Shown here in pieces: positions 55,951 through 59,600 of a DNA stretch of 64,000 nucleotides. The notes below the pieces were generated by a model, which did no database searches, was not told where the DNA came from, and saw only the letters and a list, made by a program, of their open reading frames with translations. Origin of the DNA: Candidatus Calditenuis fumarioli (GTDB taxonomy: Archaea; Thermoproteota; Nitrososphaeria_A; Caldarchaeales; Calditenuaceae); contig JANVYR010000001.1 in assembly GCA_030059665.1 (NCBI GenBank), positions 32,001 through 96,000 on the forward strand, given 5' to 3'. Each line of letters begins with the position of its first letter. The stretch's first letter is position 1. Made by a program: the position numbers and the translations under genes.

Positions 55951-57414
55951 TCAAGGAGCCCTCCTTTTCGGTGACAGCAGCTGCAAGATGAACGCTCCCT
56001 GCCCCGCAGCCAGCAACGCGCCGAAGGTCAGCAGAGCAGCAACGCCCTCGGAGCCGACGGGCAACGGATAAGCCCTGCGGGGCGCGCCGAGGGAACCCAT
56101 GAAGGCCATCGTGTAGAGGAGCCCGAGGGCCGCGACGGCCGTGAGCACTATGTGGGCGTATGCCAGCTTCGGGTTCTCCGGCCTCCCGAAGAGCAGCCTG
56201 TAGCTGTGGTAGAGCGCACCGATCCAGATCAGGGTCACGGCGATCAGGATCGTCATCAGGTGGGCCGTGGCCGCGTAGGTCCCGTGAAGCCTGAAGGCCC
56301 ATCCGATCGTGCCGAGCTGCATCGCGAGAAAACCGTCAGCTATGTAGACGCCGAAGCCGAGCATGGCCGCGAGGACCGCAGGCGTCAGCCGCAGGCCGAA
56401 AACGTAGGACGTTGCGAGGACGTTGAAGACGGAGAAGGCCGCACCGAACCCCGTCAGCCAGCTGGCGACCTGTCCCGTGTAGCTAAGCCCCTGGGGCTGG
56501 GAGGTGGGCATCGTGAACAGATGGTGGGGGAAGGCCATGATCGCTGCTGTGGAGTAGAAGACGATCGCGAAGAGCCCGAGCTTCTCGCTGAAGAGCGTCC
56601 TCGCCCTCTGCTCCTCCGAGGCCGTGTAGCGCGGGATCAGCCAGTAAACGGTTCCGAGCGCCATTATCCCCATGGCCTCCATCAGGTTGTGGGCGAATAT
56701 CCAGAACGGGTAGTTGAAGTTCATGGGTGTAAGAGCCCAACCGATGGAACCCAACGGGACGATGCCGACGAGCGCCAGGCCGATCGCGACCGCACCAACT
56801 GTGATCGCCGCACCGAGGGGAGGCAAGATGAAGACGTAAGGGAGCATCCCGGCCATCCCGGAGGGGTTGAGCGTTCCCATGAACCTCTCGAGGACGAGGG
56901 CCTCCTGCGTCTTGCCTCCGAAGACGAGCCGCGCCAGCGCAGCCGGGTAGAGGGCCACCACCACCGCGAGCACGAGAACCACTCCCCAGACGAAGACGGT
57001 CAACCCCTCCATCGACCAGAGGCCTTTGAAGACGCCGACCGCCGGCAGCGGGAACATCAGGGTGTAGCTGGTCCTGACGCCGAGGCCGAGGACAGACGCC
57101 GCTATCATCAGCATCCCCAGGTTCAGCAGGACGTATGATGCCTTGACCAGGAGACCCTTCACCGGTTTGCCGTAGCAGAATCCAGCCCTCAGCAGCGAGA
57201 GGCCCATCATCAGCTGGAAGAGGCCGCCGAAGGTCATGACGGTCCCGTGGAAGGTGAGAAGCGTGTTGTATTCCGGTATCCTCAGCAGACCGGTGGCGTG
57301 GGCCAGGACCATCAGCAGCCCAGCGGTGCCGCCGGCGAGGAACCAAGCCAGCGAGGTCAGCACCATCAGCCTCGGATACCTCGTCAGGTCCTCCAGTTTC
57401 ACGCCGGCCTCCAC
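55951..57414 (-). CDS. Heme-copper oxidase superfamily subunit I, B-family-related, NO-reductase-like active site
   Basis: 12-TM; FHG (helix II), FWIFAHNLME (helix VI), FPHH (helix VII), LHGTY..AHLM (helix X), PRR. Confidence 0.88.
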   Translation of the reverse strand: MEAGVKLEDLTRYPRLMVLTSLAWFLAGGTAGLLMVLAHATGLLRIPEYNTLLTFHGTVMTFGGLFQLMMGLSLLRAGFCYGKPVKGLLVKASYVLLNLGMLMIAASVLGLGVRTSYTLMFPLPAVGVFKGLWSMEGLTVFVWGVVLVLAVVVALYPAALARLVFGGKTQEALVLERFMGTLNPSGMAGMLPYVFILPPLGAAITVGAVAIGLALVGIVPLGSIGWALTPMNFNYPFWIFAHNLMEAMGIMALGTVYWLIPRYTASEEQRARTLFSEKLGLFAIVFYSTAAIMAFPHHLFTMPTSQPQGLSYTGQVASWLTGFGAAFSVFNVLATSYVFGLRLTPAVLAAMLGFGVYIADGFLAMQLGTIGWAFRLHGTYAATAHLMTILIAVTLIWIGALYHSYRLLFGRPENPKLAYAHIVLTAVAALGLLYTMAFMGSLGAPRRAYPLPVGSEGVAALLTFGALLAAGQGAFILQLLSPKRRAP

Positions 57415-57415
57415 G

Positions 57416-57967
57416 TCACACCACCCTGAACTTCGATGCCATCGCGGAGTGGCCGTCGCCGCAGTACTCGAGGCACCTCACCGTGTACTCTCCTGGTTCC
57501 CTCAGCTCGAGGACGATCTCCTCGGTCATACCAGGCATCAGCATGACCGTTGCGAGCAGCTCTCCCTTCGGCGAGTAGACGGCAAACGCGTGGATCGCAT
57601 CGAGGCTCCTGGCGACGAACTTGACGACCCCGGTTCTGAGCTCGTACGCGTCCAGCCTGTAGCCCCACATGAAGGCCTCCACCTGGACGACCTGCGTGGG
57701 CTCCTGTTGCGTCGAAACCGCTGTCTGGGCCTGGATCCAAGGTATCCACTGGATGCTGACCAGGTTGATCGCGGTCCACGTCAAGCCGATCGCTATCAAC
57801 CATACCACCTCCGCGGCCCTGATGAGGCGCTCGTTCTCCCGCAGTCCCTCCGCTGAAGCTCGCTTCCCCCTCCTCACCGAGAGCAGGAACAGCGCGACGA
57901 ATACCACTAGGAAAGGTGCCGTGAGGTAGACGAAGATCAGGACCGCGCCGGCACCTGTGCCCATCAT
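57416..57967 (-). CDS. Heme-copper oxidase subunit II (CuA)
   Basis: Two TM helices; A.MWGY, SLDAIHAF, CLEYCGDGHSAM. Confidence 0.9.
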   Translation of the reverse strand: MMGTGAGAVLIFVYLTAPFLVVFVALFLLSVRRGKRASAEGLRENERLIRAAEVVWLIAIGLTWTAINLVSIQWIPWIQAQTAVSTQQEPTQVVQVEAFMWGYRLDAYELRTGVVKFVARSLDAIHAFAVYSPKGELLATVMLMPGMTEEIVLELREPGEYTVRCLEYCGDGHSAMASKFRVV

Positions 57968-57997: not shown

Positions 57998-58212
57998 CCG
58001 TTATACTGGAATTAGGCTGCAATAAGACCACCAAAAAGGGAACCGCAGCGACGGGCTGTTCGCCTAGGGACCACCACAGAGCGGGCCGGTTAGCTCCACG
58101 AGGAGAGGACGGTCCATCGAGACGGCGCGAGCGGAAAGGTCAGGGACGCGTCTGCTGGGTGGCATCGGTGGGAAGACGCGCGTTAAACGCTTAAATCAAA
58201 TGCGCTGGGGAT

Positions 58213-58788
58213 GTGGGTGTGAGCCTGAACCTGAAGGTGACGACGATAATGAACCGCGACATAGCAGCGGTCGATGCGGACAGCACCGTCGAGGAGGCTG
58301 CGAGGGTGATGGCGTCCCGGAACATCGGTGCTATCGCGGTGAAAAGGGGAGGAGAGATCGTGGGGATCATGACCGAGCGGGACGTTCTGAAGCGCGTGGT
58401 GGCGGCCGGTAGGGATCCGAGGACGACGCGGGTGGAGGAGGTGATGAGCAGCCCTCCGATATCGGTGGACTCGAACGCCACGGTGGGAGAGGCCGTCGAC
58501 CTGATGAACAGGAGGGGAATAAGGAGGGTCTTCGTCAGGGAGGGCGGAAGGATCGTTGGGATCTTCACCCAGCGCGACGTGCTCGCCCTGATGAGGGTCT
58601 GCCTCTACTGCCTCGGGGAGATAATCCGTACGCCCGGCGCTCCGAGCTCAGGCCTCATCGGCTGCAGGTGCGGTGCCCTCTACCACGCAGACTGCGCCAG
58701 AACGGTGGTTTACTGCATCGACTGCGGATCGAAACTGGTCGAGCTCGTCGAGTACACGTCACCTGAAGACACGATGGCTGCCGACTGA
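58213..58788 (+). CDS. CBS-pair protein fused to a C4HC3 (RING/PHD-like) zinc finger
   Basis: Two CBS repeats (GIMTERD, GIFTQRD), then C130-x2-C-x17-C-x-C-x4-H-x2-C-x6-C-x2-C171. Confidence 0.85.
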   Translation: MGVSLNLKVTTIMNRDIAAVDADSTVEEAARVMASRNIGAIAVKRGGEIVGIMTERDVLKRVVAAGRDPRTTRVEEVMSSPPISVDSNATVGEAVDLMNRRGIRRVFVREGGRIVGIFTQRDVLALMRVCLYCLGEIIRTPGAPSSGLIGCRCGALYHADCARTVVYCIDCGSKLVELVEYTSPEDTMAAD

Positions 58789-58799
58789 GGGGGCGATCG

Positions 58800-59600
58800 A
58801 TGGACTTCGAGATCCCCTTCTTTTTCTATCACCAGGGGAGGAGGTTAGCGACCGTCTCGATTGAGCTGATGAGGCCGGTCCGGAACCTCGGAAGGGTGCT
58901 CGACGCGCTTGAAAGTTCAGGCATCTCGGTGCTCGGGCTCACCAGCTGGTTGCCGTCCGGTGACTCGGAGTGCGTGGGCTTCCTGATGGTGGTGGACACG
59001 ACAGGACACGGAAGCGATCCGGGTGAGCTGGTCAGGAAACTCTCCGAGCTCCCTGGGGTCACTAACGTCAGGATCTGGCGCTCCGGGATCGACGGTTTCG
59101 CGGCGATGACGCCGAACGGCTTCCCGACCTTCATCGGCGAACGGGTGTACGTCATGCCATCGGTCGTCTTCAAATCCATCTACCACGCTCTGTACAGGAG
59201 CCACGGAAAGACCCTCTTCGTCATCCTTTACCTCGCAGGAAAGGCAACGGGCGAGAGGGCAGCCGAGCTCAGATCCCTCTTCATGGATCAGGAGGCGGAG
59301 CCACTCGAGTCGCTGGTCGCGATCCTCAAGGTGCTCGGCCCTCCGCTGGGAGTCCTAAGGGACGTCGAACGTTTGGAAACGAATGGAGACGTCACGAGGC
59401 TGATGGTCGAGGATCTGGCGGACTGCGTGGCTCTGAGGGAGCTGAGCCCAAGAGCTCCGACAGGTCACTTCCTCCGCGGGTTCATCGAGGGCTTCATGCG
59501 GTCGCTCGGCGAACCGGTCGAGGTCTTCGAGACGGAGTGCATCAACCTCGGACACCCGAGCTGCGAGTTCGAGCTGAAGCGCACCGGTGTCCACAGCTGA
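58800..59600 (+). CDS. ACT-like + V4R domain ligand-sensing protein
   Basis: N-terminal ACT-like (RNLGRVLDAL..GISV); V4R C-terminus DC..GHFLRGFIEG..ETEC..GHPSCEF. Confidence 0.75.
   Translation: MDFEIPFFFYHQGRRLATVSIELMRPVRNLGRVLDALESSGISVLGLTSWLPSGDSECVGFLMVVDTTGHGSDPGELVRKLSELPGVTNVRIWRSGIDGFAAMTPNGFPTFIGERVYVMPSVVFKSIYHALYRSHGKTLFVILYLAGKATGERAAELRSLFMDQEAEPLESLVAILKVLGPPLGVLRDVERLETNGDVTRLMVEDLADCVALRELSPRAPTGHFLRGFIEGFMRSLGEPVEVFETECINLGHPSCEFELKRTGVHS

What the first reader, a model, noticed from the sequence alone, without database searches (positions are those of the whole stretch)
58213..58788. CBS-pair fused to a C4HC3 RING/PHD-like finger: candidate adenylate-regulated E3-like adaptor
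C-x2-C-x17-C-x-C-x4-H-x2-C-x6-C-x2-C (58600-58725) follows two CBS domains. The H-x2-C-x6-C spacing resembles prokaryotic RING family 1. CBS pairs bind AMP/ADP/ATP/SAM. Aigarchaeota are known to have a eukaryote-like ubiquitin-E1-E2-RING system, so this could couple energy status to substrate ubiquitylation and proteasomal degradation. I know of no described CBS-RING protein.
Basis: inference. Interest (0 to 1): 0.75.

Follow-up and report, generated by a model that had tools for sequence, protein, structure and literature searches.

The report
Energy-sensing protein with repurposed RING finger
This small archaeal protein joins an AMP/ATP-sensing module to a zinc finger related to ubiquitin ligases, but it lacks the ligase's working residues and is kept by many archaea with no ubiquitin system, so it is probably an undescribed energy-status regulator rather than a ligase.

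Summary
Window 58213/58219-58788 encodes a CBS pair, a C4HC3 finger (58600-58725) and an invariant C-terminal tail. It is transcribed in one hot-spring metatranscriptome. The finger is homologous to the tested Caldarchaeum E3 srfp (HH probability 92%) and folds RING-like, and this genome encodes ubiquitin, E1, E2 and Rpn11. The E3 reading still fails. In 126 of 126 family members the srfp Trp58, loop-2 Pro and linchpin Arg69 are missing, and the E2-contacting helix is four residues shorter. The fusion occurs in 34 non-ammonia-oxidising Nitrososphaerales-related genomes, three nearly closed, with no detectable E2 or ubiquitin (proteasome control 121/121). In Caldarchaeales E2 is in 75/76 genomes but the fusion in only 26/76, unlinked to the ubiquitin operon. 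What is conserved is both adenylate-binding motifs, an arginine cluster and a Y-P-x-P-x-E-T tail at a fixed distance from the last cysteine. Best reading: a free-standing, ubiquitin-independent adenylate-sensing regulator that docks on an unknown partner. It is a new variant of archaeal 'CBS pair plus small zinc domain' proteins such as TA0289. I found no description of it.

The parts
58213..58788 (+). ORF for the CBS-pair + RING-like finger + tail protein (191 aa from GTG 58213; probable true start GTG 58219, 189 aa)
   Evidence: transcribed on the sense strand in run X5
58191..58196 (+). TTAAAT, candidate archaeal TATA box about 25 nt before GTG 58219 (leaderless transcript inferred)
   Evidence: sequence; RNA depth 0 in 58024-58200 and 10.6 in 58201-58377; function inferred
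58234..58593 (+). CBS pair (Bateman module), residues about 8-127
   Evidence: Pfam E=4.8e-28; VIA-align Z 15-17, rmsd 1.3-1.9 A over 115-124 residues for the closest solved CBS pairs
58363..58383 (+). First adenylate-binding motif G-I-M-T-E-R-D (G51-D57)
   Evidence: G51 99%, T54 99%, R56 95%, D57 100% of 123 rows
58522..58527 (+). Invariant R104-R105 (with R100, R121, R128: basic cluster, inferred phosphate or acidic-tail binding)
   Evidence: 95-100% conserved
58558..58578 (+). Second adenylate-binding motif G-I-F-T-Q-R-D (G116-D122)
   Evidence: G116 98%, T119 98%, R121 98%, D122 100%
58600..58725 (+). C4HC3 binuclear RING-like finger lacking the E2-binding Trp, the loop-2 Pro and the linchpin Arg
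58753..58785 (+). Conserved C-terminal tail (family consensus Y-P-E-P-S-E-T-F/M-S-G; here YTSPEDTMAAD), ending 18 residues after the last Cys in 118 of 126 members
   Evidence: Y181, P184 and T187 100%; tail length
58800..59600 (+). Downstream V4R-domain gene, 11 bp after the stop and apparently co-transcribed; neighbour only in close relatives, not family-wide
   Evidence: Pfam V4R E=3.2e-10; read-through depth; neighbourhoods

Best explanation
A free-standing, ubiquitin-independent adenylate-sensing regulator. SHOWN BY SEQUENCE: both CBS nucleotide motifs and an arginine cluster are intact and under strong selection; the finger has a RING-like two-zinc layout that has lost the E2-binding surface; an acidic Y-P-x-P-x-E-T-hydrophobic-x-G tail is held at a fixed distance behind it. 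INFERRED: the CBS pair, probably as a dimer, binds AMP/ADP/ATP competitively. The change in shape repositions the rigid finger-plus-tail arm, possibly releasing the acidic tail from the arginine-rich CBS cleft. The arm then docks on, and switches, a conserved partner protein shared by Caldarchaeales and non-ammonia-oxidising Nitrososphaerales. It would work like AcuB on AcuC (PMC13121692), with a RING-derived domain as the docking arm. The partner is not identified.
For: Conservation concentrated on the CBS motifs, the Cys ligands and the tail. W, P and R of srfp absent in 126/126. Present in 34 genomes with no E2 or ubiquitin hit, while proteasome subunits were found in all 121 searched. Gene neighbours change from clade to clade, as expected of a stand-alone regulator. 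The same genome has CBS pairs with other Zn tails, C2H2 and C4. CBS-rubredoxin TA0289 and a CBS-Zn-ribbon protein are among the solved relatives. Expressed at about ten times the depth of its neighbours in one metatranscriptome.
Against: No ligand binding, dimer or partner was shown. The tail has low model confidence (block pLDDT 58 and 36), so its docking is conjecture. No conserved neighbour points to a target. This genome's own srfp orthologue also lacks I30 and W58, so residue loss alone does not prove inactivity.
Confidence: 0.55

Rival explanations
1. One reading: an adenylate-gated RING E3 ligase or adaptor acting with the Aigarchaeota Ub-E1-E2 system.
For: Same C4HC3 layout as the tested E3 srfp (PMC3082918 motif); profile match probability 91.7%, E=7.8e-7; best fold matches are almost all RING domains; Ub, E2 and E1 lie 7.7 kb downstream in this genome.
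Against: At srfp W58 the family has V/I (126/126); at P66 never P; at R69 S/G/A; at I30 Y/H/Q/F/N. The C6-C7 spacing is 6, against 10 in every other C4HC3 finger inspected. 34 carriers lack E2 and ubiquitin, including G427, G478 and G479, each almost one contig. 49 of 75 E2-bearing Caldarchaeales genomes lack the fusion. Distance to E2 is 45-180 kb in other genera. The genome has other RING proteins with more canonical surfaces.
Confidence: 0.07
2. A combined energy and metal/redox sensor in the manner of TA0289: the Cys7-His finger binds or releases Zn/Fe with oxygen or metal stress and modulates the CBS module.
For: TA0289 is a CBS pair plus metal-binding tail (2qh1, Z 16.8; described as iron-binding in PMC7521041). 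The His ligand is Met in 7/126 members, including C. subterraneum, showing a tolerant site. All 26 Caldarchaeales carriers have a heme-copper oxidase, and none of the 30 genomes without one carries the fusion. Here the gene lies head-to-head with a cox operon.
Against: The oxidase link follows family boundaries, so it is not independent evidence, and 20 oxidase-bearing genomes lack the fusion. The cox neighbourhood is not conserved. It does not explain the invariant tail.
Confidence: 0.13
3. A ribosome-associated, energy-sensing hibernation or recycling factor; a dimer would mimic the CBS tetrads of Sri, Dri and Hib, with finger and tail contacting the ribosome.
For: Top PDB sequence hits include CBS proteins from ribosome structures (9zni, 9sr9, 9zng). 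Archaeal CBS proteins are established hibernation factors (PMC13004131, PMC13728122). The gene sits about 40-50 bp upstream of an HflX-type GTPase in one Nitrososphaerales clade. Relatively high RNA depth.
Against: Known factors have four CBS domains or an HPF domain; this has two and no HPF. The PDB scores are sums over several CBS repeats. The hflX link is confined to one clade of 6 genomes. The tail is acidic rather than basic.
Confidence: 0.12
4. An E2-independent degradation adaptor that hands substrates to the E1/SAMP system, an AAA unfoldase or the proteasome when energy is low.
For: RING ancestry; proteasome present in all carriers searched; the tail ends in Gly in most members (SG 84, GG 19, AG 14 of 126).
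Against: The tail is not an HbYX motif. In this genus it ends in -AAD/-TAD with no Gly. No linkage to proteasome or E1 genes.
Confidence: 0.07

Closest known systems
srfp (CSUB_C1477), the RING E3 of Ca. Caldarchaeum subterraneum
   Same: C4HC3 ligand order (C-x2-C...C..C-x4-H-x2-C...C-x2-C); profile match probability 91.7%; occurs in the same genomes.
   Different: Lacks I30, W58, P66 and R69 equivalents; C3-x-C4 instead of C3-x2-C4; C6-x6-C7 instead of x10; fused to a CBS pair; not in the Ub operon; present in genomes without E2.
TA0289 (CBS-rubredoxin-like, PDB 2QH1/1PVM) and the CBS + Zn-ribbon-like protein of PDB 3GHD
   Same: Stand-alone archaeal CBS pair with a small C-terminal metal-binding domain; CBS part aligns at Z 16.8, rmsd 1.3 A over 123 residues. 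A CBS-rubredoxin cluster also exists in Nitrososphaerota.
   Different: Those tails are, from my own knowledge, mononuclear four-Cys domains; this one has eight ligands in a RING-like layout plus an invariant tail.
AcuB (CBS-ACT) and CBS-CP12
   Same: CBS pair plus a small C-terminal module; AcuB regulates a partner enzyme according to adenylate state (PMC13121692).
   Different: Different C-terminal modules, bacterial, and with operon-linked or known partners; no partner is known here.
Prokaryotic RING family 1 (PF14446) and tandem C4HC3 repeats of Thermoplasmata proteins
   Same: Weak family-wide hits (21/25 members, best E 8.2e-5). The Thermoplasmata repeats share the C-x-C and C6-x6-C7 spacing (P0009, P0022, P0024).
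   Different: Weak Pfam match only; those fingers keep the loop-2 Pro in many copies and are not fused to CBS domains.
Archaeal CBS hibernation factors (SriA-D, Dri, HibA/AHA, ARC)
   Same: Archaeal CBS proteins that couple adenylate status to a macromolecular target.
   Different: They are CBS tetrads, some with HPF; none is reported with a RING-like finger in the passages searched.

Membership tests
CBS-pair (Bateman) adenylate-binding proteins | Two tandem CBS domains | tested here: met
   Pfam E=4.8e-28, 97.7 bits vs cut-off 24; fold Z up to 17
CBS-pair (Bateman) adenylate-binding proteins | G-h-h-T/S-x-x-D ribose-phosphate motifs intact | tested here: met
   Both motifs 98-100% conserved at G, T and D
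CBS-pair (Bateman) adenylate-binding proteins | Actual binding of AMP/ADP/ATP/SAM | not testable with these tools
   Needs ITC, DSF or a structure
RING-like binuclear (cross-brace) zinc fingers | Eight conserved ligands in interleaved order | tested here: met
   7 Cys invariant; His in 119/126, Met in 7
RING-like binuclear (cross-brace) zinc fingers | RING-type fold rather than PHD or Zn ribbon | tested here: inconclusive
   Model pLDDT 76.7. Best VIA-align hit a RING, Z 5.0, rmsd 2.8 A, 52 aligned; most rows RING at Z 3-4, with PHD and C1 rows close behind. Foldseek top 50 all RING-containing entries but E>=0.06. Leans RING.
RING E3 ligases (srfp type) | E2-contacting Trp on the central helix (srfp W58) | tested here: not met
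   V 116, I 10 of 126; helix four residues shorter
RING E3 ligases (srfp type) | Loop-2 Pro and linchpin Arg/Lys (srfp P66, R69) | tested here: not met
   Pro 0/126; linchpin S 99, G 22, A 5
RING E3 ligases (srfp type) | Loop-1 aliphatic residue (srfp I30) | tested here: inconclusive
   Y 87, H 20, Q 13, F 4, N 2; Tyr is hydrophobic, but I30Q abolished srfp activity (PMC5654768)
RING E3 ligases (srfp type) | Co-occurrence with E2 and ubiquitin | tested here: not met
   Met in this genome; 0 of 34 Nitrososphaerales-related carriers have either (control)
RING E3 ligases (srfp type) | E2 binding and ubiquitin transfer | not testable with these tools
   Needs the in vitro cascade of PMC5654768
Prok-RING_1 (PF14446) | Score above the Pfam cut-off of 29.1 bits | tested here: not met
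   No hit for this protein at E<=10; best family member E=8.2e-5, a level that scored about 23 bits for another protein
Sri/Dri/Hib ribosome hibernation factors | Four tandem CBS domains, or CBS plus HPF | tested here: not met
   Two CBS domains only, no HPF hit; family length 188-193 aa
Sri/Dri/Hib ribosome hibernation factors | Ribosome binding | not testable with these tools
   Needs co-sedimentation or cryo-EM

The most novel reading that the evidence does not exclude
The protein is an energy-charge-gated protein-targeting factor: a working E3 with a non-canonical E2 surface in Caldarchaeales, or an E2-independent adaptor to SAMP, an AAA unfoldase or the proteasome in all carriers. It would be the first direct link between adenylate sensing and regulated proteolysis in archaea, and a RING finger that kept its targeting role after the ubiquitin system was lost.
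Probability: 0.12. Interest if true: 0.85.

Novelty: new variant of a known kind. Interest (0 to 1): 0.42.

Why it matters
The family has at least 204 database proteins and 60 genomes in two archaeal orders, yet is annotated only as 'CBS domain-containing protein'. It appears to show a RING finger of the same type as the archaeal E3 srfp being used outside ubiquitylation, which bears on how RING domains were recruited before eukaryotes. It also warns against calling every Aigarchaeota RING an E3. The invariant tail and intact nucleotide sites make the partner findable by a simple nucleotide-dependent pull-down, and an in vitro ubiquitylation system from a carrier organism already exists to test the E3 idea.

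Tried and rejected
Complex prediction of finger + own E2 + Zn: no answer (score 0.00); not used as evidence either way. No solved-structure sequence match to the finger (best E 0.057). Atlas feature hits were all below 0.9, leads only. Two of three RNA runs gave no reads, which is no test. The tail motif occurs in no other credible ORF of the genome. A ubiquitin-like conjugatable C-terminus was considered and rejected because this genus ends in -AAD/-TAD. Operon linkage to Ub genes rejected: seven unrelated genes intervene and the distance is not conserved. The tree clusters members by lineage but its deep branches are unresolved, so no direction of transfer is claimed. Burroughs et al. 2011 on prokaryotic RING fingers could not be fetched, so a mention there cannot be excluded. 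Literature searches for CBS + RING in archaea found nothing relevant.

Full report
OBSERVATION. The ORF at 58213-58788 (+) encodes 191 residues. Homologues are 189 aa and a TTAAAT box lies about 25 nt before GTG 58219, so that codon is the probable, leaderless start (inference). Pfam finds two CBS domains (E=4.8e-28). A loose C4HC3 pattern occurs in 3 of 1928 likely-coding ORFs of the genome and never in 200 shuffles. In one hot-spring metatranscriptome (run X5, 243 reads laid) the gene is read on its sense strand at depth 23-43 over most of its length, against under 5 for the flanking cox and leuC genes, with read-through into the V4R gene. This is one run only.

ORGANISM AND UBIQUITIN SYSTEM. 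The window is C1:32001-96000 of a 1.57 Mb genome. A genome of the same order, G026, has a single 1,680,938 bp contig, the length reported for Ca. Caldarchaeum subterraneum (PMC3082918), so the host is a Caldarchaeales (Aigarchaeota) archaeon. It encodes ubiquitin, E2 and E1 in a row at C1:98523-100456, just beyond the window and 7.7 kb from the finding, and Rpn11/JAB elsewhere. Seven unrelated genes lie between. In other genera the distance to E2 is 45-180 kb. The genome has three other RING-like proteins: an srfp orthologue, a membrane-anchored RING, and one in a second Ubl-E2/JAB cluster.

THE FINGER IS RING-LIKE AND RELATED TO A REAL E3. The C. subterraneum srfp, shown to be an E3 (PMC5654768), has the motif C-x2-C-x11-C-x2-C-x4-H-x2-C-x10-C-x2-C (PMC3082918). 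I recovered it from G026 with I30, W58 and R69 at the published positions. The finger profile matches the srfp profile at probability 91.7%, E=7.8e-7. The AlphaFold model of the finger (pLDDT 76.7) aligns best to a RING domain (Z 5.0, rmsd 2.8 A, 52 residues), with mostly RING rows below, and Foldseek's top rows are RING entries at non-significant E-values. The fold call leans RING but is weak, as is usual for a small domain.

THE E3 SURFACE IS GONE. In srfp, I30Q abolished and W58A and R69A impaired ubiquitylation. Across 126 family members the I30 position is Y/H/Q/F/N, the W58 position V or I, the loop-2 Pro position never Pro, and the R69 position S, G or A. The segment carrying the E2-contacting helix is 6 residues, against 10 in all other C4HC3 fingers inspected. 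The His ligand is Met in 7 members, including C. subterraneum. One caution: this genome's own srfp orthologue has Ala and Leu at I30 and W58, though it keeps Pro and a Lys linchpin, so residues alone are not proof.

THE DISTRIBUTION IS UNCOUPLED FROM UBIQUITIN. The profile search returned 204 proteins of about 190 aa, annotated only as CBS proteins; the Atlas has a matching 89-member Nitrososphaerota cluster. In Caldarchaeales the fusion is in 26 of 76 genomes (one family 18/18, part of the host's family, none in two other families), whereas E2 is in 75 of 76. Five further carriers are MAGs titled Thaumarchaeota, Nitrososphaerales, Nitrososphaerota or Nitrosopumilales. Among 121 relatives of one of them, 34 carry the finger; two of these are split or truncated. 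None of the 34 has an E2 or ubiquitin hit, and no genome of the 121 passes either cut-off. Proteasome subunits were found in all 121. Three carriers are essentially one contig: G427, G478 and G479. None of the 34 has amoA. Completeness values were not given for these genomes, so this is 'not found in those searched', but 34 independent assemblies missing the same two genes by chance is unlikely. A protein kept at this level of conservation where no E2 is found must have an E2-independent job.

WHAT IS CONSERVED INSTEAD. In 123 full-length rows both CBS motifs (G51/T54/D57 and G116/T119/D122) are 98-100% conserved, as are R100, R104, R105, R121 and R128 (95-100%), Y157 and V166 in the finger, and Y181, P184 and T187 in the tail. 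The protein ends 18 residues after the last Cys in 118 of 126 members, with consensus Y-P-E-P-S-E-T-F/M-S-G. Such a fixed, invariant, poorly ordered tail is typical of a docking peptide (inference). Neighbours vary: V4R gene in close relatives; metallophosphoesterase and 2-hydroxyacid dehydrogenase in Caldarchaeaceae; hflX in one Nitrososphaerales clade; unrelated genes elsewhere.

MECHANISM. Most likely (0.55) the CBS pair reads the AMP/ADP/ATP balance and moves a RING-derived arm whose tail binds and switches a conserved partner, as AcuB does to AcuC (PMC13121692). The motifs and distribution are shown; nucleotide binding, dimerisation, tail docking and the partner are inferred. Rivals are a metal/redox co-sensor (0.13), a ribosome factor (0.12), a canonical E3 (0.07) and an E2-independent degradation adaptor (0.07). 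All Caldarchaeales carriers have a heme-copper oxidase, but this follows family lines and is only a hint.

RELATION TO KNOWN SYSTEMS. The host genome alone has CBS pairs ending in a C2H2 finger and in a C4 zinc ribbon, and TA0289 and the protein of PDB 3GHD are solved examples of the same design. The finding is therefore a new variant of 'CBS pair plus small zinc domain'. It is a member of the CBS-pair family and probably of the RING-like fold. It fails the membership test for RING E3 ligases, Prok-RING_1 and the CBS-tetrad hibernation factors. I found no paper describing it, with the caveat that one key review was unavailable.

VERDICT. Real, conserved, expressed and apparently undescribed, but probably not the energy-gated ubiquitin ligase proposed. 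Interest 0.42.

Noticed in passing
G000:C1:817867-818706 (L023:4868-5707, -); orthologues L050:9380-10132, L051:2259-3023, L053:8430-9125, L055:8295-9020: A membrane-anchored C4HC3 RING protein (hydrophobic N-terminal segments, C-terminal finger over the zf-RING_2 cut-off) that keeps Ile, Trp/Tyr and Pro. In C. subterraneum and three other Caldarchaeales genomes it lies three genes after srfp in the ubiquitin locus. It is a much better candidate for an undescribed second, membrane-bound archaeal E3; a literature search for it found nothing.
   Followed up: partly
G000:C2:190880-194407 (L021): A second ubiquitin-like cluster: RING-like protein (C4 site has Asp for the second Cys), two coiled-coil-like genes, a Ubl-E2 fusion with an internal GG, and a JAB protease, near a type IV pilus/archaellum-type ATPase. 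The second E2 hit was seen only in the host's genus (G173, G180, G404, G405).
   Followed up: partly
G000:C1:264587-264802 (L022): The srfp orthologue has moved away from the Ub-E2-E1 operon together with its usual downstream gene, and has Ala and Leu at the I30 and W58 positions.
   Followed up: partly
G000:C1:98523-98759 (just beyond the window end): Ubiquitin here ends directly in GG with no C-terminal pro-peptide, unlike C. subterraneum, and rpn11 is not adjacent.
   Followed up: no
G000:C2:232858-233397 and C1:713102-713704: Two more CBS-pair proteins with different zinc tails (C2H2-type and C4 ribbon-type).
   Followed up: no
L037, L040, L041, L043, L044: A Caldarchaeum subclade, including C. 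subterraneum, replaces the finger's His ligand with Met while keeping all seven Cys.
   Followed up: partly
protein P0008: A 104 aa database protein joining the N-terminus of the V4R gene to the finger and tail; seen on one contig only, probably an assembly chimera.
   Followed up: partly
proteins P0009, P0015, P0019, P0022, P0024: Tandem arrays of small C4HC3 fingers with the same C-x-C and x6 spacing, one on the cytoplasmic tail of a Thermoplasmata PKD-domain surface protein; function unknown.
   Followed up: no
window 55951-57967 (-): A divergent heme-copper oxidase subunit II/I pair (COX1 E=4e-36) transcribed head-to-head with the finding; a second, canonical COX1 lies elsewhere in the genome.
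   Followed up: no
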